Source of the DNA: an uncultured Alphaproteobacteria bacterium
GTDB lineage: Bacteria; Pseudomonadota; Alphaproteobacteria; Rhizobiales; Xanthobacteraceae
Direction of reading: 5' to 3'
NCBI GenBank assembly: GCA_963737755.1
Contig: CAVTTZ010000033.1
Location: 803,056 to 867,055 of the forward strand
Length of the DNA stretch: 64,000 nucleotides
The notes under the pieces are model-generated. The model was not told where the DNA came from. It worked only from the letters and a program-made list of their open reading frames with translations, and did not search any database. The position numbers and the translations under genes are program-made. This document shows, piece after piece, positions 10,347 to 29,875 of this stretch (positions are counted from its first letter, which is position 1; every line of letters starts with the position of its first letter).

Positions 10347-10371
10347 CCGGAAAAGATCAGGGAGGAATTCC

Positions 10372-11583: not shown

Positions 11584-11794
11584 GCGTTCATTCGATCGTA
11601 CGGCGTGTGCGCTTTTTCTGAACGCAAATCAGCCAGCGTCGTCGAAGGGCCGAGCCTCGAGCGGCCGCTGACATCGATCAGCCATGTAACAAAGATAAAC
11701 TCCGTCACCATCGGATGCATCGATGGACTTTTTCGCGTGCCCGGGCGAAAGTCGCGCCACGCTGAAATCCCCGTTTTTATTCAATGGCCGTCCA

Positions 11795-13336: not shown

Positions 13337-14946
13337 CCGTCGCGGCGGTTTCGCCATCAAGACCGCCGCGGCGGCTCGAAGCCCGTGGCTGGTGGCCGCC
13401 GTCGTGGTTGTGCCGACCTTCATGGAGGTGCTCGACACCACCATCGCGGTGGTGGCGTTGCGCTATATCGTCGGCGGCCTGTCGGCGACCGTCGATGACG
13501 GCGAATGGGTCATCACCAGCTATCTGGCCGCCAACGCCATCATTCTGCCGATCACCGGCTGGTTGAGCGCGCATCTCGGGCGCCGCAACTACTTCCTCAT
13601 ATCGATCGCCATTTTTACCATCGGCTCCGCGCTGTGCGGCATGTGCCGGCAGTCTCGGCCAGCTCATCCTGTTCCGCATCATTCAGGGTCTCGCAGGCGG
13701 CGGCCTGCAGCCGAGCAGTCAGGCCGTTTTGCTGGACGCCTTCCCGCGCGAAAGGCAGGGCGTGGCGATGACACTGTTCGGCCTGGCCGCCTTGCTGGCG
13801 CCGGTCGTCGGCCCGACCTTGGGCGGTTGGTTGACGGACCAGTACGATTGGCGATGGGTCTTTTTGATCAACGTGCCCTTCGGTCTCGTCGCCTTCGCGC
13901 GGATGTTACGCCGTGCTGCGCGACCCGGACTATCTGGTGAACGAACGTGCGGAGCTGAAGCGACGGCCGTTTCATTTCGACGGTCTCGGCCTGACGCTGC
14001 TCGTCGTCGTCATGGTGTGCTGGGAAGTAATGCTCAGCAAGGGCCAGGAATGGGACTGGATGGGCGACCCGTTCTGGCGCGTGCAGACGTTAGCCATTCT
14101 CTGTGCGGCGGGTTTGCTCGGATTGATCATCTGGGAATTGCGCAACCCCAACCCCGTGGTCAATTTCCGGCCGTTGCGCGAACGCAATTTCGCTGGCGTG
14201 CTGCATCATTATTTTTTGCGCTTATGCCGTGCTCTACGGCGCTACGAAATCTTTGCCCGGCTTGCTGCAATCGTTGTTCGGCTACAACGCGCTGGCCGCA
14301 GGGCTGGTCATGTCGCCGGCCGGCTTCTTCGCTGTCCTCGCCATGCCGATCGTCAGCCGGTTGCTCGGCCTCAAGACCGATGCCCGCTGGCTGATCGGCG
14401 GCGGATTGCTGCTCATCGCCGCCAGCAATTACTGGATGTCGCAGATGAACCTCGACATCAGTCCCGACCAGGTCATCTGGCCGCGCGCCGGCTTGGTCGT
14501 CGGACTGGCGATCGTTTTCGCGCCCGTGAACGTCGCCGCCTATCTGTACACGCCGCCGCTTATTGCGCGGCGCGGCGGTCGGCCTGTTGAGCCTGCTGCG
14601 CAACGAAGGCGGCAGCGTCGGCGTATCGATGGCGCAAACCCTGCAGGAACGACGCGACCAATTCCATACGCTGCGGCTGGGCGAGTCGCTGGATCCTCTC
14701 AATCCCGCGGTGCAGTCGTTTCTCGATCAGGCGCAAGCGCGTTTCCTGCAGCAGACCGGCGATCCGGTTGCCGCGCAGCAACTGGCGTTGCAGGCGCTGG
14801 AGAACCTGCGCCAGCAGCAAGCGTCGGCGTTGGCGTATTTCGATTGCTTCTGGCTGTTCGCCGTCGTGGCGTTCGCGGTCGCGTTCTGCGTCTTGTTGAT
14901 GAAACGTTCGGTCGCCGAAAAAGGCGCGCCCGTCGGCGGCGAGTAA
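13333..14946 (+). pseudogene. EmrB/QacA-type MFS efflux transporter with at least 5 frame breaks (pseudogene or low-quality sequence); ATGA overlap with emrA-like stop
   Basis: Pieces in ORFs 12939-13940, 13729-14394, 13913-14590, 14229-14990, 14563-14946 follow EmrB order (..FMEVLDTTIAVVALRYIVGGL.., ..FRIIQGLAGGGLQP.., ..VNFRPLRERNFA.., C-terminal tail). Confidence 0.6.
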
Positions 14947-15013
14947 GTCAAATATTTTTCAGCCGGCGCCGCACATATCCGCGCGCTTGATGCCTGCCTT
15001 CAGAGGCTTGACT

Positions 15014-15870
15014 TCATCCGCCGACATTAAACCAATCGGGGCGCGGGATGGTCCATTGGTCGCCCCAGATTTCGTTGCCGCCGTCGAGCGTGATCACGGT
15101 GCCGGTGATGAACGAGCCGGACGGGCCGGCGAGATAACAGACAGCATCGGCGACATCGCGCACGTCGCCGAAGCGGCGCACCAGATTGGTCTTCGGCATC
15201 GCTTCGCGCGCTTCCTCCGAATAGACGTTCATGCCTTCGGTGGCGATGATGCCGGGCGCCACGCAATTGATCTGAACGCCGAGCGGCGCCCATTCGATCG
15301 CGACGGTCTTGGAGAGCGCGACCACGCCCGCCCGCGCCGCCGCGGTGTGCGCGACGCCCGGCATGCCGCGCGTCGTCACCGCGACGATGTTGACGATGCG
15401 GCCGCCGCGCCCGGCGTCGCGCCAGCGCCGCGCCGCCTGCTGCATCATGTACCAGGTGCCGTTGAGGTTGGTGTCGACGACCGCGTTAAAGCCTTTCGGC
15501 GAAAAATCAATCGCGGCTTGCGGAAACTGGCCGCCGGCATTGTTGACCAGAACGTCGGCGACGCCGAACCGCTCGCCAACCGCATCGAACAATCGCGTCA
15601 CCGCCTCGGGATCGCGGATCGACATCGGATGGCTGAGAACCTCAGCCCCCAATCCCGAGAGCCTGCCGGCGACAGCCGCGAGCCGTTCGGCATCGCGCCC
15701 GCAGAGAACAAGCTTGGCGCCGAGCCGCGCGAACACAAACGCAATCGCCTTGCCGATGCCCGCGCCCGGCGCCCGGATACCAGCACCACCTGGCCGGCAA
15801 ACAAGCCGTCGCGAAACGTCAGCGGCATGGTGGCGAGTTCGTCGTCGGTCTTTCCGAATTGCTGAGTCAT
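15014..15870 (-). CDS. Short-chain dehydrogenase/reductase (SDR), one frame break near 15780
   Basis: N-terminal ORF 15598-15870 (..GQVVLVSG) plus ORF 15014-15736 (NNAG, catalytic region); AtuB-like position next to AtuA-like gene. Confidence 0.65.
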
Positions 15871-15916
15871 GTCGATCCGGCGTTTTACGCGGTCTGAGAA
15901 GCGCGGTGCCCAGTCT

Positions 15917-17706
15917 TTAGACGACGTGCGCCAACGCGGCGGGTACCGGTATCGGATAGTCCATCAGCATCTGCGCATATGCCTTGCCCTGCGCATCGAC
16001 GCGCAGCGAAGCGACGCCGCCGCCGCCGAGCGCATCGTGCAGCAGGAAGTTGAATGCGTTCATGCCCGGAAGCTCGAAGCGCTCGACCTTGCTGACGCCG
16101 AGATGCGCAAAGCAGTCGCGCACGACCTCTTCCATCAGCGCGGCGCGGATCCACGGCACATACTCGGGCTTGCGGGCGATCAGGCCGATGTTGGCGGAAT
16201 TGCCTTTGTCGCCGCTGCGGCCCGACCGCCAACGCGATCAGCGGCACGGTGGCATCGGCGACGCCGACCGGCTTCGGCGTCTCCGGCATCGCCGGCAGAG
16301 CGGCGACAACGGCTGCGACGGCGCGAACGGAACGGCGATCTCCTCGCCGTCCGATATGGACGATCTGCGTGATTTTCTCCTTCGGCCACAGGAAGGAAAA
16401 CAGCCGCAGCACCGGCTGCACGCTCGGCCGGCCGGCGAAGAAGCCGGTAATGCCCTGCGCCATCGACGAGCCCGGCGGGAAAATCTCCCGCGCCAGAAAT
16501 TCGAGCGCTTGTTGATCGGCGTGCCGCGCGCCGATCTTGAGCACGACCTCGCGGCTGTCCTTGGCTCCGGCTCGGCGCCAGGGCCCGTACATGCTCTCGG
16601 AGCCCAGCACCTCGATCGAGGTCTCGGAGAAATACGGCAGGCCGCGCGCGCTGAGCAGCCGGCGCACGCGCGCCAGGATCGCTTCGCCGGCGCGCTCGGC
16701 CTTGGCGGCGGCCTCGTAGCCACCGATGGTCAGCGTGCCGATGACGCGATAGCCGTCGGGATAGGTCGCGCTCACCTTCAGGGTCGGCGTCGGCGGGCGG
16801 CCGCGCGCGCCGGCTGACGCGCACCTGATCCGGGCCGCAGACGGACATCGTCACATCGCGAGAAATCGCAGACCACATCCGGCAGCATGTAGGCAGCCGG
16901 ATCGCCGATCTCGTACAGCATCTGCTCGCCGACCGAGAGCGGCACGACGAGCCCGCCGGTGCCCGGAGGCTTGGTGACGACGAACGATCCGTCGGCGCTG
17001 CACACCGCGATCGGCATGCCCATGTCGTCCCAGCCGGGAACGTCGCGCCAGTCGGTGAACAAGCCGCCGGTGACTTGCGCGGCGCATTCCAACAAATGGC
17101 CGGCGAGGCTGCCTTGCGCGAGCTTGTCGTAATCCGTCCACGACCAGCCGAAGGCGTGCACCATGCGGGCCGAGCACCACGGCGGAATCGACGCAGCGTC
17201 CGGTGATCACCACATCGGCGCCGCGGTCGAGCGCCAGCGCGATCGGCTGCGCGCCCAGATAGGCGTTCATGGTGGTCAGCTTTTCCGGCATGGCGGCGCC
17301 GGAAAACATCTCGGTAACGCCAGCGCTGCGAATTTCGTCAGCACGGCCGCTGAGGTCGTCGCCGGTGACGACCGCGATTTTCAGCGCGATGCCGGCCTCC
17401 TCGCGCCTTGCGCTGCAAGGCCGCAGCGGCCGCTTGCGGATTGATGCCGCCGGCGTTGGAGACGAGGCGGATGCCTTTTTGTTTGATCTCAGGCAGCAGC
17501 GGCGCGATCGCCTCGACAAAATCCGGAACATAACCGAGTTCCGGCTTGCGGGCGCGCGCCCGCGCCAGCAGCGACATCGTGATCTCGGCCAGATAATCGA
17601 ACACCAGAAAGTCGATGTCGCCGTGGCGAACAAGCTGTTCGGCGCCGGCGGTGCTGTCGCCCCAGAACGCCGAGGCGCAACCGATCCGCACTGTCTCGCG
17701 TGTCAT
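15917..17706 (-). pseudogene. AtuA-family (DUF1446 N-terminal region plus C-terminal ferredoxin-like domain) protein with at least 4 frame breaks
   Basis: Ordered fragments: [26 protein letters not shown].., ..[29 protein letters not shown].., ..[34 protein letters not shown].., ..IGTLTIGGYEAAAKAERAGEAIL.., C-terminal ..LMDYPIPVPAALAHVV. Confidence 0.6.
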
Positions 17707-17710
17707 GCCG

Positions 17711-18492
17711 CTCACCGCCCGGTCCAAACCGGCGAGCGCTTCTCATTGAAGGCGCGAAAACCTTCGCGCGCGTCCTGCGTGCGCGCCATCTGCGGCAGCA
17801 CGCGCTGCGCATATTCGAGGCCGGCCTCCAACGGAAACGCCATCGATCATCGCCAGCGCCCGGCGGCCCATGCCGATCGCGGTCGGCGACGACGCGACGA
17901 TCGATGCCAGCAGCGCCTCGAGCTTCTCATCGAGGTTGGCGCGCGGCACCACGTGGTTGACGATGCCGTGCACCAGCGCGTCCGCCGCGCTGATCGGCTC
18001 GCCGGTGACGCACAATTCCAGCAGCTTGCGCCGCGAAATCGTGCGCAGCATGAACGGCAGGATCATCATCGGAAAAATGCCGATGCGGGCTTCCGGCACG
18101 CCGAGCCGCGCATGATCGGCGACGATCGCGAAGTCGCAGGCGCAAACCAAGCCGAAGCCGCCCGCGAGCGCGTGGCCATTGACGCGCGCGATCACCGGCA
18201 CGCGGGCGTCGACGATGGCGCGGAACAGTTTGACCGCCGGATTGTCGCGCTCGGCCGGATCGACGGTGAACGGGTCGCCTTCGGCGTTCGGCTTGAGATC
18301 GCCGCCGGCGCAAAACGCCTTGTCGCCGGCGCCGGTGATGACGACGGCCCGGATGTCAGGAGATGCGTCCGCTTGCGCGATACCGGCGCGAAGGCCATCG
18401 AACACGGCTTCGTTGAGCGCGTTGCGGCGCTCCTCCCGGTCGATGGTGAGCCAAAGCGCCTGCCCTTTTTGTTCGCAGCGCACGTCCGGCAT
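17711..18492 (-). CDS. Enoyl-CoA hydratase/isomerase (crotonase), frame break near the C-terminus (about 17840)
   Basis: ITGAGDKAFCAGGDLK..; true C-terminus ..EGFRAFNEKRSPVWTGR found in another frame ending with TGA at 17711-17713, 4 nt before the AtuA-like ATG. Confidence 0.7.
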
Positions 18493-18586
18493 CGCTTCCT
18501 CCATATTGAGTTGGATTCATTTTTGGGGGAGACTAGATGACCCGCGCGGTAATGACAATGCGAAACGCGGGAACAGGGAGGATGGC

Positions 18587-19378
18587 ATGCCCGAGCAGGA
18601 CCTCGTGCTGGTTGCGACCGACGGCGGCATCGCGCGGATCACATTGAACCGGCCGGACCGGCTGAATGCGCTCGATCACGATCTGGCGGTGGCGCTGGCG
18701 ACGGCGCTGGAATCGCTCGAACACGATACCGGCCTGCGCGCGGTGACGCTGATGGGAGCCGGCCGAATGTTCATGGCGGGCGGCGATATCACCGTCTTCA
18801 AGAAGGCCGGCAACGATGCGCCGAAAGTGATCGGACTGCTGATCGATCTCTTCCATCGCATCATCCGCTCGATCCGCCGGCTGCCGGCGCCGGTGATCGC
18901 GGGCGTGCACGGCGCTGCCGCCGGCGGCGCGGTCGGGCTGGCGCTGGCTTGCGACTTCGTCATCGCCAGCGAGGACGCCACGTTCGTGCCGGCTTACGCC
19001 AAACTCGGCACCAGTCCCGACGGCGGAACGACATGGTCGGTGACACGGCTGATCGGCGCGCAGCGCGCGCTCGAATGGCTGATGCTCGGCGAGGCCATCA
19101 CTGCGCGCACCGCGAAGGACATGGGCCTGATCCATCGCGTGGTCGCGAAGGATGCGCTGGCCGGCGAGGTCGACGCGCTGGCGCGGCGGATCGCGAGCGG
19201 CCCTGCCACGGCCCAAGCGTCACTCAAGCGCCTCGTCGATCAGGCGCCCTACTCATCACTCGATGCGCAGCTCGATGCCGAGCGCGAAGGTTTTGTGCGC
19301 GCCGCCGGAACGGCTGATTTTCGCGAAGGCGTCGCGGCATTTCTGGAGCGGCGGCCGGCGAAATTCGGCATGCCGTGA
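18587..19378 (+). CDS. Enoyl-CoA hydratase/isomerase family protein
   Basis: Intact 263 aa; ARITLNRPDRLNALD.., AGGDI.., AGVHGAAAGGAVGLALACDF; SD AGGGAGGA before ATG 18587. Confidence 0.8.
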   Translation: MPEQDLVLVATDGGIARITLNRPDRLNALDHDLAVALATALESLEHDTGLRAVTLMGAGRMFMAGGDITVFKKAGNDAPKVIGLLIDLFHRIIRSIRRLPAPVIAGVHGAAAGGAVGLALACDFVIASEDATFVPAYAKLGTSPDGGTTWSVTRLIGAQRALEWLMLGEAITARTAKDMGLIHRVVAKDALAGEVDALARRIASGPATAQASLKRLVDQAPYSSLDAQLDAEREGFVRAAGTADFREGVAAFLERRPAKFGMP

Positions 19379-19501
19379 CGCGCATACGCGAGACCGATCG
19401 GCGAGTTTGTCGGTCGCATCGCAGGCGACGATTGTGTCCCCAGATTTCCGCTCCAAAGCGTTAGCCGCGCCGGCGATCGGGCCTCGCGCCGCGGCGACGG
19501 T

Positions 19502-19537
19502 GGAAAGCGAACAAACAACGGAAAGCGAACAAACGAC
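19502..19537. repeat. Two tandem copies of an 18-bp unit GGAAAGCGAACAAAC(A/G)AC in a GC-rich non-coding stretch
   Basis: Direct reading of sequence. Confidence 0.5.
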
Positions 19538-19983
19538 ATCGTTCTCGCGGCGCTCCGCGCCCGAGTCGTGCCCACCACGATGCGAAGATTTGCCTCCGAC
19601 GATGAGGGAGGCGAAGCGCCGAAAGGCGCAGTCCAACACTGCCGCTTGCGCGGCGGCGCGCCTCGTCGGGGCGCACCCGCCTTCCGGCGCTTCACCGCGG
19701 CATTCGCCACCGGCTATCACCCCGATGGCTCAGCTCCAGAACCGGGTTTCCCGAGCGTCTCAAGCGCGCGGGTGTTTTGCCCGCTTGCCTCTAGCCTCGG
19801 TTAAGCACGCTCCGTGCGGGCCGGTCCTTGTGCCGGCCGACCGGTGCCCCAGAGCCGCCCGGGTGCGGATCGCATCCATCCGCGCGCGGGGACCGCACTC
19901 GCTCCGTCTTCCGAAAGTGCCCTCGCGAAAGGCGCCCCTCAGCGAGCGAGATGGGATCGCATGTAACTAATATAGGGGACGAA

Positions 19984-20016
19984 ATGCAAGATATTGTCAC
20001 GTTCACGGTGACGTGA
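19984..20016 (+). other. Very small ORF (MQDIVTFTVT, 10 aa) with AGGGGA Shine-Dalgarno, bracketed by 8-bp inverted repeat GATGGGAT/ATCCCATC; function unknown
   Basis: SD 19974-19979, ATG 19984, TGA 20014; inverted repeat at 19950-19957 and 20032-20039; lies at GC-content transition into the low-GC island. Confidence 0.15.
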
Positions 20017-20153
20017 GCCAAGCGGACGCCCATCCCATCATAAATTCGAGGCGATGTCCGGCTTCACGGGCAAAGCGGGCGGCGTGATTTCCGCTTTTGA
20101 TCCAAGCGCAGCTTGTTTCGCAGCCTGTTTCAGCTTAGCAGCGACAATGCCCG

Positions 20154-21062
20154 CTAGCCGTGACATTTCTTCCACTTCTTGCCGCTCCCACAGGGGCATT
20201 GGTCGTTCCGGCGAATCTTGCCCTTGGCTTGAGCGCTCTCAATCCGCTGCTGCTGCAACGCCTCGGCTTTCGCGCGCAGACGTTCGACCTCTGCATCTGG
20301 CACTCCGGCAAGAGTTACATGTCGCAGATGGGCGCCGTACAGTTTTCCGTCTTGGTCGTATTCATATTCGACGAGGCGGCGAACTGCGTTATTGGCCGCC
20401 AACATGACAACACGAGTGTGTTCGATCGCAAGTTCCGCATTGCGTGGCGCATCGGAAGACCAAACAAACTGAGTTATCTCCATCCCGCCATACGATGACA
20501 GCGGACGCGACCGTTTCAGTTCTTTATTTTCCTTCAGCGCGTTTTCGATCGACGAAGCGAGTGTGTTTCGCCAGTCACCTGCGCCATCCAAAATGTAACT
20601 GGATAGTTCCGCTCTATGCGGCTCGTTGGACGCGCATAGCAGATCAATAATCTCGGCTATCCGGCTTGACATTTTCTGTCGAGGCTTTGGTGGCGCATCA
20701 CCTACGAGCACGGCGCTGAAATATTCGTCGGCTGGCGTAGTATCGCCATCGAACTGCATCTTGTCGGCATTCTCGGAGAGTTCTTCCGCATACTGTGTGT
20801 AGTTGTTCTCCGTGAGATACATACCGAAGTGATCCATCTCGTCATTGAAATCGACCTTATCGCAACGACCGGCTCTTACGCGCATTTCGACGAAATGCAA
20901 AAAAACTAGCGGATTGTCGAACAGATCGGCGTAAACTCGAAGGTCGTCGAGCGACAGCTGCCACAACGGGCGTTGGCCGACATCGATCCCGAGTGCCGCA
21001 AGATGTTGCGCGCGAGCTGCCAGCGCCGTGAAGGCATCGAGCGTGATTGTGCATACGGTCAC
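20154..21062 (-). CDS. Hypothetical protein with C-terminal SEC-C zinc-ribbon motif (CPCGSGKKWKKCHG); low-GC island gene C
   Basis: 302-aa ORF, GTG start, about 52% GC versus about 65% flanks; C-terminal SecA-type metal-binding motif. Confidence 0.5.
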   Translation of the reverse strand: MTVCTITLDAFTALAARAQHLAALGIDVGQRPLWQLSLDDLRVYADLFDNPLVFLHFVEMRVRAGRCDKVDFNDEMDHFGMYLTENNYTQYAEELSENADKMQFDGDTTPADEYFSAVLVGDAPPKPRQKMSSRIAEIIDLLCASNEPHRAELSSYILDGAGDWRNTLASSIENALKENKELKRSRPLSSYGGMEITQFVWSSDAPRNAELAIEHTRVVMLAANNAVRRLVEYEYDQDGKLYGAHLRHVTLAGVPDAEVERLRAKAEALQQQRIESAQAKGKIRRNDQCPCGSGKKWKKCHG

Positions 21063-21126
21063 ATGCCGGAAATCCGAAAGTCGCAGTTTCGCAATTTCAT
21101 TGTGTCCTGCGTTCGCAATAGAGACC

Positions 21127-22074
21127 TCAGGTGCGCTTTCCTAGAAATCCACAAATCGGCTTCCTTGCCGAGCGGGCGCTTGGAGAAGCGTACGAAGTGA
21201 CACGAGATGAGCATCGAGATCGTTCGCGGGCGATGTGTACGTGAAAGCTGCCACCCTTCACCTCGATTACGAAGAGGTGGTCTTCATAGGTCAAGATGCC
21301 ATCGGCCTCATGCCACTGCGCCGGGCCACCGCCGACTTTCCATCTGTAGTAAATCGGCCGATATACGCGTGCGCCGGGCATTAACCGGGTTAGGTAGGTG
21401 AACGGCAATTCTTCAGAGACCGCCTTTTGACCGTCGTTCCACGGTTCCTTGTAGGCGGGTTCAAGCTCCACAACGATGCGCCGTAATACGCGATATATGT
21501 TGTCGAACAGGCTGAAGATGTCGAAGCAATACGTCGAGCCATTGAGCCGTATGAACGGTCGCCGCATTACCGGCCAAATGCGCAGGGGCCATCCTGCAAA
21601 TTCGCCGGGGGCGAAGAATTCCGTGTCTTCGCCGGGGGAATAACTCAGTGCGTCCAGCATGGCCCTCGGCAGGATGGTGTTTTTGCCAACGTCGAACAGA
21701 TCAAGACCGAACATCGCGCCTGCGAACCTGTCGCGCTGCGCAGCAAGGTCGCGGTCTTCAAATACTTTGGCCATCAGTGCTTCGAAGTCTAGGTCTTGGT
21801 GCTTAGCTGCAAGCTGATCAATCCGGGCCATCGACTTCGCGTGCAATTCCTTCATGTCGGTTGCGATGTTCATTAGGCCATGCGTAAGTCTAGTCAAAAT
21901 CTTGTCGAACTCCGCCGTGAGTGCAACTGCGTCAAGTCCGAACAGCTTCAACAGAATGTTCGAATGCGGAGCGAGCACATCGAGCAGCGCCCGCTGCTCA
22001 TGAAGCTGATAGCGTTTGCCTCGAATATTTAGCCAGAGTGTTTCCGCGCGAAACCGAAACTCCTCCAACTGCAT
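21127..22074 (-). CDS. Hypothetical protein with PD-(D/E)XK nuclease-like motif (..HEADGILTYEDHLFVIEVKGG..); low-GC island gene B, probably continuous with gene A through a frame break
   Basis: 315-aa ORF; D...E-V-K core at about 21256-21303; the last about 40 residues are low-complexity and may be out of frame. Confidence 0.5.
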   Translation of the reverse strand: MQLEEFRFRAETLWLNIRGKRYQLHEQRALLDVLAPHSNILLKLFGLDAVALTAEFDKILTRLTHGLMNIATDMKELHAKSMARIDQLAAKHQDLDFEALMAKVFEDRDLAAQRDRFAGAMFGLDLFDVGKNTILPRAMLDALSYSPGEDTEFFAPGEFAGWPLRIWPVMRRPFIRLNGSTYCFDIFSLFDNIYRVLRRIVVELEPAYKEPWNDGQKAVSEELPFTYLTRLMPGARVYRPIYYRWKVGGGPAQWHEADGILTYEDHLFVIEVKGGSFHVHIARERSRCSSRVTSYASPSARSARKPICGFLGKRT

Positions 22075-22609
22075 ATCCAGTTGCGAGTTCTTGAGCCCTT
22101 CGGTGAGCCGTCAGGCACATCTGATAGTCGAGCGTGAGCCGCCGGAACAATGTCTCAACATTCGCTTTCAGCTTGATCCAATCCTCCTCGCTTACGTCGG
22201 CGGCATACTGCTCCGGCTTCATTGATACGATTACGCTTTGCACATAATCGACCATCCGGGCTGCTGCGAGCTTTTCTGAATCACCAGCCTCTTTCCCGCC
22301 CAAGCCGACCATCGTTGCAGAATATTCCCACCAGCCCCGTTGAAGCAGGCGATCAGGGGGTAGGCGGACGATCTGCGCTGCGATGGAGGCGACAAGGGCG
22401 TCGATCTCGCCGACCGTCATGGGATACTGAGCCGCCATTTTGGCTTGGGCGGCCTCAAATTGCTCTTGTGTTGCCCGTGAGCGGCCTATCATCAGCCGGC
22501 CGAACCGCGCGAACTCCATAGGCCCGGCGGCGAAATAGTCGTCGGGCTTTACGTTTTTGGCCTTTCTCTTTTTTGACTTGCCCACAGTAGGTTCTCCCGC
22601 GCGAGGCAC
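21998..22609 (-). CDS. Hypothetical protein, basic N-terminus (GKSKKRKAKNVKPDD); low-GC island gene A, overlaps gene B by 77 bp in another frame (likely one gene with a frame break)
   Basis: 203-aa ORF with GTG start preceded by GGGGG; frame 0 upstream of gene B ATG is open back to 22033. Confidence 0.4.
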   Translation of the reverse strand: MPRAGEPTVGKSKKRKAKNVKPDDYFAAGPMEFARFGRLMIGRSRATQEQFEAAQAKMAAQYPMTVGEIDALVASIAAQIVRLPPDRLLQRGWWEYSATMVGLGGKEAGDSEKLAAARMVDYVQSVIVSMKPEQYAADVSEEDWIKLKANVETLFRRLTLDYQMCLTAHRRAQELATGYAVGGVSVSRGNTLAKYSRQTLSAS

Positions 22610-22858
22610 GATATACCCCCACGCTTTACCGTCTCGGCTTTGAGAACGGCGCCATCATCCTTGAGCTTGCGTTTGGAAACTCAACGTAGGGACTCGCCGC
22701 CGTCTTTATCAATCCGGCCAAAATCGTCGCAGAACCGCAAGGACTTACTCCGGCGCTTGCGCTGGTCCTACTTTAATTGCGGCGCGGACCGTCGCTATCG
22801 GCACTTAGCGATGCGGACTTTCGGAAGCAAAGCGGAGCTGCGCAAACATAAGAGAGTC

Positions 22859-24616
22859 TCACCCAGTCCGTTCGCCCGCAGCCGCGGCAAGCTCGGCCAT
22901 GATGCGTTCGCGCATGACGAATTTCTGCGGCTTGCCGGTCGCCGTCATCGGAAAGTCCGGCACGAAGCGGATGTGGCGCGGTATTTTATGATGTGAGATC
23001 TGTCCGCGGCAGAAGGTTTGGATGTCGTCCGCCGTCGCTGCCTGGCCGGGCTTGAGCACGATGAAAGCGCAAATGTCTTCGCCGAGGCGGTGATCCGGAA
23101 CGCCGAATACCTGCGCGGACTGCACCTTCGGATGACGCAGCAAAAACTCCTCGATCTCACGCGGATAAATATTCTCGCCGCCGCGGATCAGCATATCCTT
23201 GAGCCGACCGACGATGCTGCAATAACCCTGCGGGTCGATGGTCGCCAGATCGCCGGAATGCATCCAGCCGGCTTCGTCGATGGCGTCGGCGCTGCGTTCG
23301 CGATCGTCCCAGTAGCCCCGCATCACGCCATAGCCACGCGTGCACAATTCCCCCTGCTCGCCGACGCGTACGGCTTTGCCGCTCGCATCGACGATCTTGA
23401 CCTCGACATGCGGATGGATGCGCCCCACTGTCGAGACGCGGCGATCGACCGGGTCGTCGGGACGCGACTGAAATGATAGCGGGCTCGTTTCGGTCATGCC
23501 GTAGCCGATGGTGACTTCGCGCATGTGCATACGGTCGATCACCGCCCGCATGGTGTCGATCGGGCACGGCGCACCCGCCATGATGCCGGTGCGCAATGTC
23601 GAGGTGTCGTAGTTGGCGAAATTCGCGTGCTCAAGCTGGGCAATGAACATGGTCGGCACGCCATGCAGCGCGGTGCAGCGGTAACGCGCCACGGCAGCGA
23701 GCGTCGCTTCGGCATCAAACCCTTCGGCGGGAAACACCATGCCGGCGCCGACCGCCGTGCAGGTGAGCACGCCGAGCACCATGCCGAAGCAGTGATAGAG
23801 CGGCACCGGAATGCACAGCCGGTCTTCGGCCGTCAGCGCCATCGCCTTTGCCGAATAGCGCGCATTGTTGACGATGTTGAAGTGCGTCAGCGTTGCGCCC
23901 TTGGGCGATCCGGTGGTGCCGCTGGTAAATTGAATATTGATGGCGTCGTCGGGATCGAGCGTTGCAGAGAGCGCGTCGAGCCGATTGCGGTGTGCGGGTC
24001 CCGCGAGCGATACCAATTGAGAAAACAGGCGGACGCCGGAGGGATGCGGCCCGTCGTCGAGCAGCACGACGTGTTTCAGATGCGGAAGCCGTTTCGCCTG
24101 CAGGGTTTCGGCTTGCCGATCGATCTCCGGCGCGACGGTGCGCAGCATTTCGACATAGTCGCTCGCGCGGTGGCGCCGGGCCATGATCAGCGCTTTGCAG
24201 CCAACCTTGTTGAGCGCGTATTCGAGTTCGGACGCCCGATAGGCCGGATTGATGTTGACCAGAATGGCGCCGATGCGCGCGGTGCCGAATTGGGTGAAAA
24301 GCCACTCGGCACGATTGGGCGCCCAGATGCCGACCCGATCGCCGCGCCCGATGCCGAGCGCCAGAAGACCCGCGGCAACGTCATTCGCGCGCTCGCGCAA
24401 ATCGTACCAGGACAGCGATTGCTTTTTCTCAGCGAAAATCGCGGCGGGGCGTCCGCCGTGCCGGGTGCAGGCGCGATCCAGCAACTGTGCGACCGTCATG
24501 TATTTGAGCGGGTCGTCGCTGGTGCCGGCGACGTAGGATAGCGGCCCTTGCGGCCGCAGATGATCGTCGCCGCGCCCGCGCAGGAAATCCGAACTGAACG
24601 GGTTGTGGATGCTCAC
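22859..24616 (-). CDS. AMP-dependent acyl-CoA synthetase (medium-chain/AtuH-like); start uncertain (GTG 24616 or ATG 24499)
   Basis: [23 protein letters not shown] motifs; intact. Confidence 0.75.
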
Positions 24617-24651
24617 GGGGCGCAGCCGCTCATGTGGCGCACGATCGCCGA

Positions 24652-26175
24652 TCAGAAATTCCGCCAATCCCCGAACTGCTCGAAGACATGGGCGGCGCGA
24701 TAAATCGTGGTCTCGGCATAATGCTTGCCGATCAGCATCATGCCGATCGGCAGGCCGTCGCTCATGCCGCAGGGGATTTGCATCGCCGGATGCCCGGTCA
24801 CATCGAACGGACAGGTATTCGGCAGCATCTCGAAGCCGCGCTGGCACCACAGCGCCAGCGGCGCGTTGTTGGGCGGCAGCGGCGTCGCCTTCAGGGGCAG
24901 CGTCGGCATCATCAGAAGATCGTAACGCGCGAGCGCATCGTCATACGTCTTGCGCAACTGGCGGCCGAGATTTTGCGCCTTGGCGTAGAAGTGGCCGCGG
25001 TGATGCTTGATGAAATATTCGCCGGCCAGCATGGAGATTTTGAGCGTGCGCGACAGCTCGTCGGCGCGCGCGCGCCAGTTGGCATGGGCGTCGAGCAGGC
25101 TCGTGGTGTAGAGGCCCTTCCAGTTGAAGCCCATGCCGTTGCCGCTCATCATCTGGGCGACTAGGCCCTCGAGTGCGATCGGCGTCCAGATCGCGACGCC
25201 GTCGCGATGCATCGGGATCGACACCGGTTCAACAATGGCGCCGGCGCCGCGCAAACGCTCGGCGGCCTCGCGCACTTTTGCGTCAACGTCCGCTTCGCTC
25301 GCCGGCCAGCCGAAGCCTTCCTGGACAAGCCCGATGCGCATGCCGGAAACGCCGCGGCCCATGCCGGTGGTGTAGCTGTATTTTTCCGGCTGCACGTCGT
25401 ACTGGCGCGGATCGAGACCATCGGCGCCGGCAATCACCTCCAGCAACAACGCGCTGTCGGCGACCGTGGTCGTCATCGGTCCGACATGATCGATGGTCGC
25501 CTCGATCGGCATGACGCCGGTGTAGGGCACGAGGCCGTGCGTCGCCTTCATGCCGTAGCAGCCCGAATAGGCCGCCGGCATGCGGATCGAGCCGCCCTGA
25601 TCGCCGCCGATCGCCATTTCGACTTCGCCGGCGCCGACCAGCGCACCGCAGCCCGACGACGAGCCGCCGGCCGAATAGCCGTGCTTGAAGGGATTGTGCA
25701 CCGGACCGTGCGCCGAGGTGTGGCTGCCGCCGGACAAACAAAAATACTCGCAATGCGCCTTGCCGACGATGGTGCCGCCGGCATCGAGGATGCGGGTCAC
25801 GACCGTGGCGTCGATATCCGGCACATAGCCTTCCAGCGTGGAAGCGCCGTTCATCATCGGCACGCCGGCCAGGCAGATATTGTCCTTGAGGACAATGCGC
25901 TTGCCGGACAGCGGTCCGTGCGCGGCGCCGCGCACCTCCGTCTTGACCGCCCAGGCATTGAGCGGATTTTCGTTGGCGCCGGGACGATAGCCGGGCGTGC
26001 GCGGATAGCGCACCGGCGGCAAATAGTCGGGCAGCTGATTGACCCGGTCGTAGGCCTGGAAAGTGCCTTCCAGCACGTCGAGATATTCGGCGACTTCGCC
26101 TTGCGACATGCTCAGATGCAGCGAGTTGACGATGTCGTGCATCTGTTCGAGCGTTGGCCGTCTGACGGTGGACAT
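24652..26175 (-). CDS. Amidase (amidase-signature family)
   Basis: [15 protein letters not shown] signature; own ATG at 26175 preceded by AGGGGG SD. Confidence 0.8.
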
Positions 26176-27192
26176 GGGGCCCCCTAATGATGTGACGGCT
26201 GCGGGCGCTGCCGGCGCCGCACTGCGCGGTCGCCCGTTGCGGGCGGATGCTGATGATGAAGCGGCGCGCGGCGCGCCGGACGGTCGAATGGCAACCGCCG
26301 TCGCAGTGTCGCGATTGGCCGGCGCGCGCTGCGGAACGTTCACCTGCGGGACGACCGTGAGCTGCGGACGCGGACGCGCCGCGGCACCGCCGCCGGTCCC
26401 CGCGTAGGTGCTGCGCGCGCCGCCGAGACCGACAAGCTCCGCAATGGCACCGCCCTGCACGGCGCCGACGTCGAGTTCGCGGGTAATGCGGCCGCGCTCG
26501 ACCAGAACGATGCGGCTGGCGACATCGAGCACGAGTTCAAGATTCTGCTCGACGATCAGCATGGAGAGACGATGCTTCTCCCGCAAACTTGCCAGCAGTT
26601 CGCCGATCTCCTGAACGATGGACGGCTGAATGCCTTCCGATGGCTCGTCGAGCAGGAGGAGCCACGGCACCGGCACCAAAGCCCGCGCCAGCGCCAGGAT
26701 CTGCTGCTCGCCGCCGGACAACGCGCCGCCACGGCGATCCAGCAATCGTGTCAGCCGCGGAAACAACGCCAGCACGCGCTCGATCGCCCGCTCTTCGGTC
26801 TCGCCTGAGTCCGGCGTCCAGGCCAGGCGCAAATTTTCGTGGGCGCTCAGGCCCGGAAGAATGCCGCGACCTTGCGGCACATAAGCAACGCCGAGCCGGC
26901 TGCGCTCATGCGCCGCCCAGGTGGTGACGTCGCCGCCGTCGATCACGATCTTGCCGCCGCGCGCCGGCAGCAATCCCATGATCGCCTTCATGAGCGTGGT
27001 CTTGCCCATGCCGTTGTGGCCGACGATGCCGATCGCCTCGCCTTCCCAAAGCTGCAGCGAGATGCCGTGGAGCACCGGCACTTCACCATAGCCCGCCTGC
27101 AGGTCGGTGATGTCGAGAACGATACCGCTGGGCGCAGCGTCATCGGCCGCGGTCTCGTCGCCTCGGGTCTCGCCGGCTTCGCGAACGCTCAT
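26176..27192 (-). CDS. ABC transporter ATP-binding protein (LivF/UrtE family); natural stop not identifiable, ORF reads through into the amidase gene (true C-terminus probably near 26.4 kb)
   Basis: Walker A GHNGMGKTT, LSGGEQQ, LLLDEP; ATGA overlap with upstream ATPase; the about 75 residues after ..AELVGLGG are Ala/Pro/Arg-rich low-complexity. Confidence 0.6.
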
Positions 27193-27916
27193 GCGCGGTT
27201 CCCCAGATAGACTTCGCGCACACTCGGATCGGTCAGGACTTTTTCAGCATGGCCTTCGAGCAGGATCGCGCCCTGATGAAAGACCGTGATCAGGGAATTG
27301 AGCGTCCGCACAAAATGCATGTCGTGATCGACCACGATCAGGGTCGCGGTCTGATTGATCCGGCGGATGATGGCGATCAGACGCTCGGTCTCGATATTGG
27401 TAAGGCCGGCCGCGGGCTCGTCGAGCAGAACGAGCCACGGCTTGTTGGCGAGCACGGTGCCGATTTCGACCAGTTGGCGCTGACCGTGCGCAAGCTCGCC
27501 GACCAGCCGCCGCGCGATTCCGGTCAGTTCGAGCTCGTTCAGGACTTCTTCGACGACGGCATCGACACCGTCATGGCCGGCGGTGCGGCGCGCGGAGAGC
27601 CAGAGATTTTCCGCGACCGTCAGCCCGTTCATCACCGACGGCACCTGCGTCTTGATGCCGATCCCGAGCCGTACGATCTGATGCGTCGACCAGCCGCTAG
27701 TGTCCTGGCCACGGATCAGAACGCGGCCGCTGGCATTGCCGCCGCGGACCTGGCCGGTGAGCGATTTGAAAAACGTGCTCTTGCCGGCGCCGTTCGGGCC
27801 GATCAGACAACGCAATTCGCGTTCGCGGAGCACGAAGTTGACGTGATCGACCGCAAGCACGCCGCCAAAGCGCACGGCCAGATCCTGGGTCTCGACAACC
27901 GCCTCGCTCACTGTTT
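27189..27916 (-). CDS. ABC transporter ATP-binding protein (LivG/UrtD family)
   Basis: GPNGAGKST, LSGGQ-like, HDMHFV; GTG start overlapping permease stop (GTGA). Confidence 0.75.
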
Positions 27917-28960
27917 GGCGTCCTGCAATGCGATGCGGCGCCGCCGCGTTCCGCGGGCCTGCCGGCGATGCACTTGTGCCTGAGCAAGACGCTGCCGCCA
28001 GAGCGTAAAGCTCGGCGCAAAACCGCGCGGCACAAGCAGCACCACCAGAATCAAGATCGCGCCCAGCACGAGCGAATTGTCGACCAAAGTTTGATGTCCA
28101 AGCTCGAGCTTCAGCGATCCGAGCACGATCGCCGCGATCATCGGCCCGACCAGCGTGCCGAGCCCACCGACAATGACCCAGATCAAGACCTCGGCCGTGG
28201 TGCCGAGGCTGAACACGCTCGGGGTGACGATCTCGGCCCAGTTGGCAAACAGGCAGCCGGCGAGCCCCGCCATCGCCGCGCAAACCGAAAAGATCGCGGT
28301 CTTGTAAGCCGGAACGTTGTAGCCGAGCAGCTCCATCCGGGTTTCGTTTTCACGAATGCCGATCAGCGTGCGGCCGAAGGCGCTCGACAAGATCCATCGC
28401 GCCACCAGATAAGCAAGGAACAGACAGACGATCACGACGTAATAGTAAGCGGTGCCGTAGATCTCCATCTTTGGATCGCCCGGCACATTCAATGTCGGGA
28501 ACGCCGGTATGCCGTTGAAGCCGCCGAGCCGCGCGTTGCCGATCTTGTAGGCGTCGCCGGCAGTAGCATTCATAAAGCGGTTGAGGATGAGCGTGACCAC
28601 CAGGGTCATCACGCCGAGATAGACATCGCTGATACGGCCATAGAACATCAGCGCGCCGATGATGGCGGCGACCACCGCCGGCACGATCAGCGCGAGCAGC
28701 ACCGGCACCGTGCTCTCGCCGATGTTGAAGGACGCAATCGCGTAGGTGTAGGCGCCGAGGCCGAAATAGGCGGCATGGCCGAAGCTGAGAATGCCGGCAA
28801 ATCCCCACATCAGGGCGAGCGACAAGGCGAACAACGCCCAAACCGCCAACAAAATCGGCGTATTGGTTTCGCTCACCAGCGGCAAAGCCGCCAGCAGCAC
28901 GGCGAGCGCCGCGAGCCAGTTCCATTGGATCCGCCCGATGCCGAACGCTGCGCCTGTCAT
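27908..28960 (-). CDS. ABC permease (LivM/UrtC family)
   Basis: Intact 350-aa polytopic membrane protein, LivM-like. Confidence 0.8.
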   Translation of the reverse strand: MTGAAFGIGRIQWNWLAALAVLLAALPLVSETNTPILLAVWALFALSLALMWGFAGILSFGHAAYFGLGAYTYAIASFNIGESTVPVLLALIVPAVVAAIIGALMFYGRISDVYLGVMTLVVTLILNRFMNATAGDAYKIGNARLGGFNGIPAFPTLNVPGDPKMEIYGTAYYYVVIVCLFLAYLVARWILSSAFGRTLIGIRENETRMELLGYNVPAYKTAIFSVCAAMAGLAGCLFANWAEIVTPSVFSLGTTAEVLIWVIVGGLGTLVGPMIAAIVLGSLKLELGHQTLVDNSLVLGAILILVVLLVPRGFAPSFTLWRQRLAQAQVHRRQARGTRRRRIALQDAKQ

Positions 28961-29823
28961 GTCGAGTTACGGAAAAATTGCCCGGTGATGCCTTGCGGCA
29001 TCAGCCGCAGGAGCACGAGGGCGAGCGCCAGCATGGCGATTTCACCGAGCACCGGCGTCGACGCAAACGACACCAACTGGTCGACGGCGCCGAATAGCCC
29101 GGCGGTCGACAGCGTGCCGGCGATCACGGCCGCACCACCGGTGATGACGGTGATGAACGCCTTGGCGATGTAGGCGCCTCCGATCGACGGCAGCAGCCCG
29201 GTGAGCGGCGCCATCACGCCGCCGGCAAGGCCGGACAAGGCGGCGCCGACCGTGAACGTCAGCATGAAGATCGTGCTCGGATTGTAGCCGAGCGACGCGA
29301 CCACATCCCTGCCCTGCATGGTGCCGCGCGCAATCAGCCCGACGCGGGTGTAGCGCAGCACGAACCACATCGCGCACATCAGGATCACCGCTACCGCGAT
29401 GACGAACAGATTGTAGCCGCCCATCTGATAATGGCCGATGCGATAGCCGGGGATCGGCGTCGGCACGCTCACTGGCGTATTGCCGAAGATCAAGGTGACG
29501 AGGCCGATCAGCAAAAGACTCAAGCCCCAGGTGGCGAGCATGATGTCGATCATGCGCCCATAGAGAAACCGCACGATCAAGCGTTCGACGATCAGCCCGA
29601 TAATGCCGACCACAATGGGCGCGATCACCAGCATGGCAAAATAGATGTTGATGCCGGCCTTGGCGGCCGCAATGGTCGCATAGCCGCCGAGCATGACGAA
29701 TTCGCCGTGCGCAAGGTTGATCACGCGCATCATGCCGAACACGACCGCCAATCCCGCGCTGATCAGCGCGAGAAAGGCGATCATGTAGAGAATTTCCAGA
29801 ACGACGATCGCCGCGTAGTCCAT
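28957..29823 (-). CDS. ABC permease (LivH/UrtB family)
   Basis: MDYAAIVVLEILYMIAFLALISAGLAVVFGMMRVINLAHGEF.. LivH-like. Confidence 0.8.
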   Translation of the reverse strand: MDYAAIVVLEILYMIAFLALISAGLAVVFGMMRVINLAHGEFVMLGGYATIAAAKAGINIYFAMLVIAPIVVGIIGLIVERLIVRFLYGRMIDIMLATWGLSLLLIGLVTLIFGNTPVSVPTPIPGYRIGHYQMGGYNLFVIAVAVILMCAMWFVLRYTRVGLIARGTMQGRDVVASLGYNPSTIFMLTFTVGAALSGLAGGVMAPLTGLLPSIGGAYIAKAFITVITGGAAVIAGTLSTAGLFGAVDQLVSFASTPVLGEIAMLALALVLLRLMPQGITGQFFRNST

Positions 29824-29875
29824 TCCATCAGCCCGTTTGGCGGCGGCGGGCAGCACGCCCGCCGCGCGTTCGGCT

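What the first reader, a model, noticed from the sequence alone, without database searches (positions are those of the whole stretch)
19960..22860. Low-GC island with PD-(D/E)XK-like nuclease and SEC-C zinc-ribbon ORFs, inserted into an acyl-CoA catabolic cluster
Between an enoyl-CoA hydratase gene (ends 19378) and an acyl-CoA synthetase gene (ends 22859) the GC content drops from about 65% to about 52%. Three minus-strand ORFs (A 21998-22609, B 21127-22074, C 20154-21062) give no family-level match by eye. Gene B carries a classic D...E-V-K restriction-endonuclease-fold motif (HEADGILTYEDHLFVIEVKGG, about 21256-21303). Gene C ends in a SecA-type SEC-C metal-binding motif (CPCGSGKKWKKCHG). Gene A has a strongly basic N-terminus. 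A and B overlap by 77 bp in different frames, so they are probably one gene; A+B, or A+B+C at about 820 aa, may be a single multidomain protein. Aberrant composition, nuclease fold plus zinc ribbon, and insertion inside a conserved metabolic locus all fit a horizontally acquired defence-type or mobile-element-derived module that is not an obvious member of a named system. No integrase or tRNA is present, and the left flank is 580 bp of GC-rich non-coding DNA.
Basis: partly seen in the sequence, partly recalled or inferred. Interest (0 to 1): 0.7.

Follow-up and report, generated by a model that had tools for sequence, protein, structure and literature searches.

The report
Broken solitary nuclease gene, likely anti-phage
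The three ORFs are pieces of one horizontally acquired gene for an ~812-residue nuclease with a zinc-knuckle tail; it belongs to a large family nobody has characterised that rides on plasmids and defence islands and probably protects bacteria against phages, but the copy in this window is disrupted.

Summary
They are fragments of one gene, window 22585-20154 on the minus strand. The merged reading aligns end to end (81-90% identity) with intact ~812-aa proteins.

The gene is always solitary. It sits on plasmids, ICE-like islands and defence islets, once between CBASS, a type VI retron and QatABCD. In three close relatives the same ech-acs junction holds a different four-gene module.

The window copy is broken by two +1 insertions and a TTG-to-TAG nonsense codon. 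The insertions are probably assembly errors, because neighbouring AtuA, ech and emrB-like genes carry about twelve similar insertions without other decay. The TAG is probably real, because an independent assembly appears to share it.

Best reading: a dead copy of an uncatalogued single-gene candidate defence nuclease. The defence role is inferred, not shown.

The parts
20114..22810 (-). Low-GC cassette (GC 0.554): the gene plus about 225 bp of leader and about 40 bp of trailer. The same DNA occurs in unrelated genomic contexts.
   Evidence: 88.6% DNA identity to L001 over window 20114-22810 and 84.0% to L002 over 20129-22799, with unrelated flanks. GC.
20154..22585 (-). Disrupted CDS of the ~812-aa nuclease/SEC-C protein, from the GTG start at 22583-22585 to the TAG at 20154-20156. 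ORFs A, B and C are its fragments.
   Evidence: The merged or corrected translation aligns end to end with intact homologs P0001, P0004, P0027, P0041, P0060 and P0115.
22089..22089 (-). Frame break 1: one extra A (CAAG[A]AC), shifting ORF A into ORF B.
   Evidence: Window-specific insertion relative to three intact genes, L001, L002 and L004.
21249..21249 (-). Frame break 2: one extra A (GGC[A]GCT) directly after EVKGG, shifting the ORF B frame into the ORF C frame.
   Evidence: Window-specific insertion relative to L001, L002 and L004.
21141..21143 (-). In-frame TAG replacing the conserved Leu of FVDF-L-ESAPE (TTG/TTA in relatives).
   Evidence: DNA alignment. P0422 from an independent assembly starts at the same downstream GTG as ORF C, which implies the stop is present there too (inference).
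21250..21312 (-). PD-(D/E)XK catalytic strands HEADGILTYEDHLFVIEVKGG. The Asp codon is 21301-21303, the Glu 21262-21264 and the Lys 21256-21258.
21400..21417 (-). SEELPF helix carrying the conserved upstream Glu (E391 of P0001) of the E...D...ExK signature.
   Evidence: E391 is 0.99 conserved. Coordinates.
20817..20846 (-). NDEMDHFGMY, the core of a second, very strongly conserved block (D581, E582, D584, H585, G587, Y589 of P0001). Its role is unknown.
   Evidence: Conservation. The domain has no structural relative.
20157..20210 (-). SEC-C zinc knuckle RNDQCPCGSGKKWKKCHG at the C-terminus. The stop falls three codons earlier than in relatives (CAG to TAG).
   Evidence: Pfam PF02810 at E 1.5e-08. 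PDB sequence hits to the SecA and YchJ metal-binding domains. C-terminal alignment.
22538..22585 (-). Strongly basic N-terminus VGKSKKRKAKNVKPDD.
   Evidence: Translation. Conserved in close homologs.
22586..22810 (-). Conserved leader with RBS GGAGAA (22590-22597) and a near-palindrome CCAGCGCAAGCGCCGG (22750-22765).
   Evidence: Alignment of the window, L001 and L002 leaders. Coordinates.
19367..20113 (.). Orphan GC-rich segment (GC 0.652). It is non-syntenic with relatives and is not part of the shared cassette. It contains an 18-nt tandem duplication at 19502-19537.
   Evidence: Synteny breakpoints. No repeat elsewhere in the window, and no match in the fetched loci or in plasmids. Tandem copy D7.
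18587..19378 (+). Left syntenic flank: enoyl-CoA hydratase gene.
   Evidence: 87% identical over 260 aa to the L093 ECH_1 protein. DNA synteny ends at 19366.
22859..24616 (-). Right syntenic flank: acyl-CoA synthetase gene (585 aa).
   Evidence: 89% identical to the L093 AMP-binding protein. The exact protein, P0425, is in the collection. DNA synteny resumes at 22893.

Best explanation
Window 20114-22810 is a horizontally acquired single-gene cassette. At the ech-acs junction it occupies the place that a four-gene sugar-type module holds in close relatives.

What the gene encodes. It is one ~812-residue protein of a large, uncharacterised family with a fixed architecture:
- a basic N-terminal tail and a long helical domain;
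- a central restriction-endonuclease-fold (NERD-like PD-(D/E)XK) catalytic domain with a conserved E...D...ExK signature;
- a structurally novel C-terminal domain with a second conserved acidic/His block;
- a SecA-type SEC-C zinc knuckle at the very end.

Most likely function. The family acts as a stand-alone, normally auto-inhibited Mg2+-dependent nuclease that restricts phages or other invading DNA. The non-catalytic domains would sense the invader or hold the nuclease in check. The zinc knuckle would tether it to a partner or to nucleic acid.

Shown here: gene unity, the nuclease fold, conservation of the catalytic residues, the solitary mobile lifestyle, and its neighbours in other genomes.

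Inferred: the defence function, the substrate, the trigger and the role of SEC-C.

State of the window copy. It is not functional as written. It has a TTG-to-TAG nonsense codon that is probably real. It also has two +1 insertions that are probably consensus errors of the assembly.
For: One gene. The merged 820-aa reading matches more than 500 proteins, the best at 89% identity and 99% coverage, all about 812 aa. The alignment is collinear. The breaks are single extra A's at 22089 and 21249 and TAG at 21141-21143.

Family. 2983 representatives have E<1e-3 and 548 have E<1e-30, nearly all full length. Pairwise dN/dS is 0.10-0.16.

Fold.
- AF2 pLDDT 94.4, pTM 0.92.
- Foldseek top hit is Upx, prob 0.99.
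- D428 is invariant; E391, E441 and K443 are 94-99% conserved.
- NERD PF08378 is hit weakly by 17 of 58 members.

SEC-C.

Solitary. No neighbour is conserved across divergent contexts.

Mobile and defence contexts.
- L002: between a CBASS effector and cyclase, a type VI retron and QatABCD.
- L096: ICE-like island with AbiLi.
- L003: island with integrase and AlpA.
- L006/L007: islet with HEPN-MNT, ParE-Phd and ImmA-like genes, inside a nif cluster.
- Plasmids: next to a Lit gene in Aliarcobacter, near AbiE in Lactococcus, and in Photobacterium.
- L095: plasmid-like.
- The gene has lower GC than its flanks in 8 of 11 hosts.

Replacement. Synteny with L091-L093 breaks at 19366 and 22893.

Precedents in the literature. 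Stand-alone nuclease defence proteins Upx (PMC13099982) and ZwsA (bioRxiv 10.64898/2026.04.06.716636). SEC-C motifs occur in the antiphage protein Rugutis (PMC11381338) and in the PADLOC E2 and PDC-S12 models.
Against: - No member of this family has been tested. The defence role rests on guilt by association, and I computed no background expectation.
- Only about 5 of 13 sampled contexts have a recognisable defence or toxin-antitoxin gene within 10 kb. Some contexts are plain housekeeping surroundings (L094; L001).
- No PADLOC model matches the body of the protein.
- There are no homologs in 50,697 phage records. That neither supports nor contradicts a defence role.
- The Upx resemblance is partial: TM 0.2-0.28, with 279 of 812 residues aligned.
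- Nothing tells us the substrate (DNA or RNA) or the trigger.
- Whether the window copy is really dead cannot be settled without reads.
Confidence: 0.6

Rival explanations
1. The gene is intact in the organism, and every disruption, including the TAG, is an assembly or sequencing error. On this view the window simply carries a functional copy of the family.
For: - About twelve window-specific single-base insertions sit in neighbouring genes: eight at 16223-17838 in AtuA and ech, and four frame steps in the emrB-like gene.
- With those insertions removed, AtuA has no stops and dN/dS 0.07, so insertion errors are plainly present.
- The SEC-C gene shows no relaxed constraint: lineage N/S is 43/85 against 29/66, Fisher p 0.67.
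- All catalytic and conserved residues are kept.
Against: - The TAG is a substitution, not an insertion.
- AtuA shows no sign of substitution errors after correction.
- P0422, from an independent assembly, begins at the same internal GTG as ORF C and ends at the same early stop. That is expected only if the upstream stop is also present there.
Confidence: 0.3
2. The family is a selfish addiction or toxin-type nuclease of mobile elements, or a solitary modification-dependent (type IV-like) restriction enzyme whose main effect is plasmid or ICE maintenance rather than phage defence.
For: - It is frequently carried on plasmids and ICE-like islands next to partition, Hok/Gef and toxin-antitoxin genes.
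- It is solitary, with no adjacent methyltransferase or partner.
- The cleavage domain is FokI/BspD6I-like.
Against: - No cognate antitoxin or immunity gene is conserved next to it. That is hard to reconcile with a constitutively toxic addiction module.
- It sits among dedicated anti-phage systems in L002, L096 and L090.
- A type IV restriction enzyme would itself be a defence system, so this rival partly overlaps the best explanation.
Confidence: 0.2
3. The family is an accessory DNA repair or recombination nuclease with a cellular housekeeping-type role. Its low GC and patchy distribution would then be incidental.
For: - NERD and PD-(D/E)XK domains occur in repair enzymes.
- Some copies lie beside UmuC, RecA or DinI-like genes.
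- Some lie in otherwise housekeeping surroundings.
- Purifying selection is strong.
Against: - The location differs in every genome sampled, and the gene is absent from the same locus in close relatives.
- GC is lower than the host in most cases.
- It is carried on plasmids and ICEs.
- Copies are readily lost or broken: the window copy, and the IS30-split copy in Lactococcus.
Confidence: 0.08

Closest known systems
Upx (single-protein PD-(D/E)XK defence nuclease; PDB 9wuf; PMC13099982)
   Same: - A large stand-alone protein with no partner gene.
- A canonical D...ExK restriction-endonuclease core embedded in big helical regulatory domains.
- In the paper Upx is a Mg2+-dependent nuclease that is auto-inhibited by a middle domain and activated by a phage protein. 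That is the working model I borrow.
   Different: - Upx is 1272 aa, with the canonical core at the extreme C-terminus (D1161/E1176/K1178) and a second, atypical N-terminal nuclease.
- This family is ~812 aa with a central core, a novel C-terminal domain and a SEC-C knuckle.
- There is no sequence-level relation: no PADLOC Upx hit and no HMM hit to the 9wuf sequence.
- TM-scores are only 0.20-0.28.
NERD domain proteins (Pfam PF08378), including the stand-alone effector ZwsA (bioRxiv 10.64898/2026.04.06.716636)
   Same: - The same E...D...ExK arrangement. ZwsA has E535/D567/E580/K582, and this family has E391/D428/E441/K443, with an identical 13-residue D-to-E spacing.
- Both are multidomain single-gene effectors on genomic islands.
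- 17 of 58 family members hit NERD weakly.
- NCBI names the Lactococcus homolog 'NERD domain-containing'.
   Different: - The window protein and P0001 do not reach any NERD score.
- By its paper, ZwsA has VHS, DUF647 and S4 domains, is about 82 kDa, and cuts RNA-phage genomes. It has no SEC-C tail.
FokI / N.BspD6I-R.BspD6I type IIS cleavage domains
   Different: - There is no recognisable DNA-recognition domain.
- No methyltransferase neighbour appears in any of 13 contexts.
- Sequence identity is 10-12%.
Shedu (SduA, PDB 8ps4)
   Different: SduA is about 400 aa, belongs to the DUF4263 family and forms tetramers. There is no Pfam or PADLOC Shedu hit here.
SEC-C metal-binding domain proteins (SecA C-terminus, YecA, YchJ) and the SEC-C-bearing antiphage protein Rugutis (PMC11381338)
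   Same: The last ~20 residues are a textbook CxC...C(H/C) SEC-C knuckle. Databases therefore call the family 'YecA family', 'SecA' or 'SEC-C metal-binding domain-containing'.
   Different: - Only the tail matches. The YecA model PRK10396 scores 22 bits against a cut-off of 149, over residues 788-818.
- There are no SecA motor domains.
- Rugutis is 359 aa with its motif at the N-terminus.

Membership tests
PD-(D/E)XK (restriction endonuclease-like) superfamily | Alpha-beta-beta-beta-alpha-beta core fold | tested here: met
PD-(D/E)XK (restriction endonuclease-like) superfamily | Conserved acidic residues and Lys in the D...(D/E)xK arrangement on adjacent strands | tested here: met
   D428 is invariant; E441 is 0.99, K443 0.94 and the upstream E391 0.99 conserved in 116 sequences. 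All are present in the window copy.
NERD domain (Pfam PF08378) | Match to the family HMM at or above its threshold | tested here: inconclusive
   No NERD hit for the window protein or P0001 at E<=1. 17 of 58 family members hit at E<0.01, the best at 1.3e-4. A Lactococcus homolog is annotated NERD by NCBI.
Upx defence system | Sequence membership (PADLOC Upx model, or similarity to the 9wuf sequence) | tested here: not met
   No Upx model among the PADLOC hits at E<=1 for the window protein or at E<=0.01 for 58 members. The profile search of PDB sequences does not find 9wuf at E<=10.
Upx defence system | Architecture: ~1270 aa, atypical N-terminal nuclease, middle domain, canonical nuclease at the C-terminus | tested here: not met
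   The family is ~812 aa with a central nuclease and a SEC-C tail. Upx architecture is taken from PMC13099982.
YecA / SecA (the names given by databases) | Full-length match to YecA (UPF0149 domain plus SEC-C), or presence of SecA motor domains | tested here: not met
   NCBIfam PRK10396 scores 22.2 bits against a cut-off of 149, tail only. Pfam finds only PF02810. The names are artefacts of the 20-residue motif.
SEC-C metal-binding motif | C-x-C-x8-C-(H/C) knuckle matching PF02810 above threshold | tested here: met
   34.8 bits against a cut-off of 20.4. C796, C798 and C807 are 96% conserved. Metal binding itself is not testable here.
Catalogued anti-phage systems (PADLOC-DB 2.0.0) | HMM match covering the body of the protein | tested here: not met
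   Only the SEC-C tails of the E2, E1-E2 and PDC-S12 models match, at residues ~778-820.
Anti-phage defence gene (functional class) | Protection against phage when expressed, dependent on catalytic residues | not testable with these tools
   Contextual evidence only: CBASS, retron VI and Qat in L002, AbiLi in L096, Lit in L090, AbiE in L089, toxin-antitoxin genes in L006.
Type II/IIS restriction-modification system | Cognate DNA methyltransferase encoded next to the nuclease | tested here: not met
   No DNA methyltransferase is adjacent in the 13 contexts. No neighbour at all is conserved.
Classical genomic island or integrative element (for the window locus) | Integrase, tRNA target and flanking direct repeats | tested here: not met
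   The non-syntenic 3.5 kb holds only this gene and a 747-bp orphan segment. There is no tRNA and no convincing flanking repeats.
Pseudogene (state of the window copy) | Disabling mutations that are real rather than assembly errors | tested here: inconclusive
   The two +1 insertions resemble about twelve other insertions in neighbouring genes that otherwise evolve under dN/dS 0.07. The TAG substitution is indirectly supported by the independent protein P0422. There is no relaxed constraint yet.

The most novel reading that the evidence does not exclude
The family founds a new single-protein immune system in which a FokI-like nuclease is coupled, through its SecA-type SEC-C knuckle, to the ribosome or to SecB-type chaperones (the known partners of that motif in SecA). 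The nuclease would then be released or activated when a phage takes over translation or secretion. The structurally novel C-terminal domain, with its conserved D-E-x-D-H block, would act as the sensor or as a second catalytic site.
Probability: 0.1. Interest if true: 0.75.

Novelty: new variant of a known kind. Interest (0 to 1): 0.5.

Why it matters
If the family is a defence system, it adds a widespread one to the catalogue. It has at least 548 clusters at 50% identity and spans Alpha-, Gamma- and Deltaproteobacteria, Campylobacterota, Bacillota and the genus Rhodohalobacter. Current detection tools miss it, and databases mislabel it as 'SecA' or 'YecA'.

Its architecture is not seen in any characterised nuclease effector: a FokI-like core between two novel domains, ending in a SEC-C knuckle. 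SEC-C tails recur in other defence proteins (E2-like, PDC-S12, Rugutis), which hints at a shared but unexplained role for this motif in immunity.

For this particular genome the matter is minor. The copy is probably dead and sits in a stretch of the assembly that carries many single-base insertion errors. That is itself a warning for anyone annotating the contig.

Tried and rejected
- The genome-contig scan with the family alignment was swamped by the SEC-C motif pattern. Only L008 was a true full-length relative, so there is no named-genome survey.
- The afdb50 fold library was not available.
- The profile search against PDB sequences found only SEC-C tails.
- The phage collection had no homolog.
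- Rfam, tRNA and repeat scans of the island were negative.
- ARAGORN's tRNA-Cys at 29233-29316 lies inside a permease gene and is not supported by Rfam.
- The promoter scan found nothing.
- The orphan segment 19367-20113 matched nothing in the window, the fetched loci or plasmids.
- Exact look-ups of insertion-corrected versions of the N-terminal part (480 aa, four variants) and of ech (259 aa, three variants) found nothing. This is uninformative.
- I rejected a discrete transposon-like element. The cassette ends do not coincide between contexts, there are no terminal repeats, and there is a single copy in the window.
- I rejected an operon partner, because no neighbour is conserved.
- I rejected an old pseudogene, because lineage N/S equals that of an intact relative.
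- Literature searches for SEC-C combined with nuclease, defence or NERD found no description of this family.

Full report
**1. The observation**

The three minus-strand ORFs are present at the stated coordinates: A 21998-22609, B 21127-22074 and C 20154-21062. GC falls to 0.52-0.58 across about 20000-23000, against 0.63-0.71 on either side. The shared cassette is 0.554 and the flanks are 0.64-0.65. The nuclease-like motif HEADGILTYEDHLFVIEVKGG lies at 21250-21312, and CPCGSGKKWKKCHG lies at 20157-20198. The latter matches Pfam SEC-C at E 1.5e-08.

**2. One gene, not three**

A three-frame translation shows that coding sequence passes from ORF A's frame to ORF B's frame near 22090. It passes from B's frame to C's frame directly after EVKGG, and C's frame carries an in-frame stop upstream of ORF C.

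A merged 820-aa reading matches more than 500 database proteins. The best are 89% identical over 99% of the length, and nearly all are 812 aa. The alignment is collinear end to end.

DNA alignment with three intact genes (L001, L002, L004) pins the breaks down:
- one extra A at 22089 and one extra A at 21249;
- a TTG/TTA-to-TAG substitution at 21141-21143;
- a CAG-to-TAG change that ends the protein three residues early.

The family start codon is the GTG at 22583-22585. It is preceded by a GGAGAA ribosome-binding site.

**3. Are the breaks real?**

Comparison with three syntenic relatives (L091-L093) shows that frame breaks are not peculiar to this gene. Eight window-specific frame-breaking insertions lie between 16223 and 17838, in AtuA and an ech gene. 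None lies inside coding sequence in the 7 kb from 22900 to 29860. An emrB-like gene at 13.3-14.9 kb is read through frames 2, 0, 1, 2, 0, which is four more +1 steps.

With its insertions removed, AtuA has no stop codon, and its dN/dS against relatives is 0.07. That equals the value between intact relatives. Seven frameshifts without any other decay are best explained as consensus insertion errors in a poorly supported part of the assembly. The two +1 insertions in the SEC-C gene follow the same pattern.

The SEC-C gene itself shows no relaxed constraint. Lineage-specific N/S is 43/85, against 29/66 for an intact relative (Fisher p 0.67).

The TAG is different, because it is a substitution. 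The window's genome is in the protein collection as a 917-kb contig, where ORFs B and C are called separately (P0407, P0421). An independent assembly holds P0422, which differs from ORF C at one residue. It starts at the same internal GTG and ends at the same early stop. A gene caller would have extended an open frame to the contig edge, so the upstream stop is probably present there too.

My reading is that the nonsense mutation is probably real and recent, and the insertions are probably artefacts. Reads are needed to settle this.

**4. Where it sits**

Close orthologs of the flanking acyl-CoA synthetase (88-89% identity) lie in contigs with the same gene order on both sides. DNA synteny with the window runs over 16031-19366 and 22893-29870, at 85-87% identity.

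Between those points the relatives carry an MFS transporter, a GFO/IDH/MocA oxidoreductase, a DUF993 gene and an AP_endonuc_2 gene, about 4.7 kb in all. The window carries 3.5 kb instead: a 747-bp GC-rich orphan segment (19367-20113) and the 2.7-kb cassette.

The cassette DNA recurs at 84-89% identity in L001 and L002 with unrelated flanks. There is no tRNA, no Rfam match, no terminal repeat and no integrase within the segment. The cassette ends do not coincide between contexts. It is therefore a replacement at a variable junction, not the footprint of a discrete element.

**5. The protein**

The family is large and uniform. It has 2983 representatives at E<1e-3 and 548 at E<1e-30, nearly all 790-830 aa and matched over their full length. 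Curated libraries see only the SEC-C tail. NERD (PF08378) is hit weakly by 17 of 58 members.

An AlphaFold model of the intact homolog P0001 is very confident (pLDDT 94.4, pTM 0.92). It shows these parts in order:
- a short beta unit;
- a long helical region (residues ~40-300);
- an alpha/beta core (~340-515);
- a helical region (~540-690);
- a small alpha/beta unit;
- a long helix;
- the zinc knuckle.

E391, D428, E441 and K443 are 94-100% conserved, and the window copy keeps them.

**6. Context of intact members**

The gene is solitary. No neighbouring ORF is conserved across divergent contexts. The thirteen contexts sampled are:
- a defence island with a CBASS phospholipase effector and cyclase, a type VI retron and complete QatABCD (L002);
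- an ICE-like island with relaxase, AlpA and AbiLi (L096);
- an island with integrase and AlpA (L003);
- an islet of HEPN-MNT, ParE-Phd and ImmA-like genes inside a nif cluster (L006/L007);
- a plasmid-like contig (L095);
- plasmids of Photobacterium, Aliarcobacter (next to a Lit phage-exclusion gene) and Lactococcus (split by IS30, near AbiEi/AbiEii);
- an island rich in hypothetical genes (L097);
- small hypothetical ORFs, with a DDE_3 transposase in the L005 copy (L004/L005);
- the window itself, where the cassette replaces the four-gene module between metabolic genes;
- ordinary surroundings (L001, L094).

The gene is lower in GC than its flanks in 8 of 11 hosts. No phage record encodes a homolog.

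**7. Mechanism and comparison**

The best-supported reading is a stand-alone, metal-dependent nuclease effector of the kind represented by two characterised proteins. Upx is auto-inhibited by a middle domain and activated by a phage protein (PMC13099982). The NERD protein ZwsA is the other (bioRxiv 10.64898/2026.04.06.716636).

Membership in either family is not supported:
- There is no PADLOC Upx hit.
- The size and domain order differ from Upx.

SEC-C motifs recur in defence proteins: the PADLOC E2, E1-E2 and PDC-S12 models and Rugutis (PMC11381338). Their role there is unknown. In SecA the motif binds SecB and the ribosome (established knowledge), which suggests a tethering role. This last step is speculation.

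The database names 'SecA' and 'YecA family' are artefacts of the 20-residue motif.

**8. Verdict**

The finding is a disrupted copy of an uncatalogued candidate single-gene defence nuclease, acquired horizontally at a variable junction. The family is moderately interesting as a new variant of a well-populated class. The specific copy is of little consequence and lies in a low-quality stretch of the assembly.

Noticed in passing
window about 12500-22600 (sites 16223, 16300, 16350, 16814, 16861, 17165, 17404, 17838, 21249, 22089; frame steps near 13640, 13900, 14200, 14600): This stretch carries many single-base insertions that break AtuA, an ech gene, an emrB-like MFS gene and the SEC-C gene, always by +1. 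The 7 kb from 22.9 to 29.9 kb has none in coding sequence. With the insertions removed, AtuA is clean and has dN/dS 0.07, so these look like consensus errors of the assembly rather than biology.
   Followed up: yes
window about 34160 and about 41616: tblastn with relatives' proteins matches a Peripla_BP paralog and an amidase paralog in two different frames each. This suggests further frame breaks outside the main stretch.
   Followed up: no
window 24652-27192 (-): An 846-aa fusion of an ABC-transporter ATPase with an amidase domain. It is conserved at 842-843 aa in L091 and L093, inside a urea/branched-chain-type ABC transporter operon.
   Followed up: partly
window 19367-20113: A GC-rich 747-bp orphan segment between the ech gene and the cassette. 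It has an 18-nt tandem duplication (19502-19537). It has no counterpart in syntenic relatives, in the rest of the window or in plasmids. Its origin is unexplained.
   Followed up: yes
window 29233-29316 (-): ARAGORN calls a tRNA-Cys with anticodon ACA inside the permease gene 28960-29823. Rfam finds no tRNA there, so it is probably a false positive.
   Followed up: partly
window 22750-22765 (-), and L001/L002 about 200 bp upstream of the gene: The ~210-bp leader travels with the gene between genomes. It contains a conserved near-palindrome, CCAGCGCAAGCGC(T/C)GG, which may be an operator or a hairpin.
   Followed up: partly
L003 8003-9988: In Bradyrhizobium sp. USDA 10063, a 661-aa HATPase_c_3 protein ends 13 nt before the SEC-C nuclease gene, inside an integrase/AlpA island. 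It has no PADLOC hit and is not found next to other family members.
   Followed up: partly
L089 5358-8718 (Lactococcus plasmid pUCCL637D): The family member there is split by an IS30 insertion into a 'NERD domain-containing' part and a 'SEC-C' part. This is a second example of an inactivated copy. It lies 5.6 kb from AbiEi/AbiEii.
   Followed up: partly
L091 and L092 (about 9800-14400): The relatives' contigs also show split genes (AP_endonuc_2, GFO_IDH_MocA, MFS). Frame errors therefore seem common in this set of metagenome assemblies.
   Followed up: no
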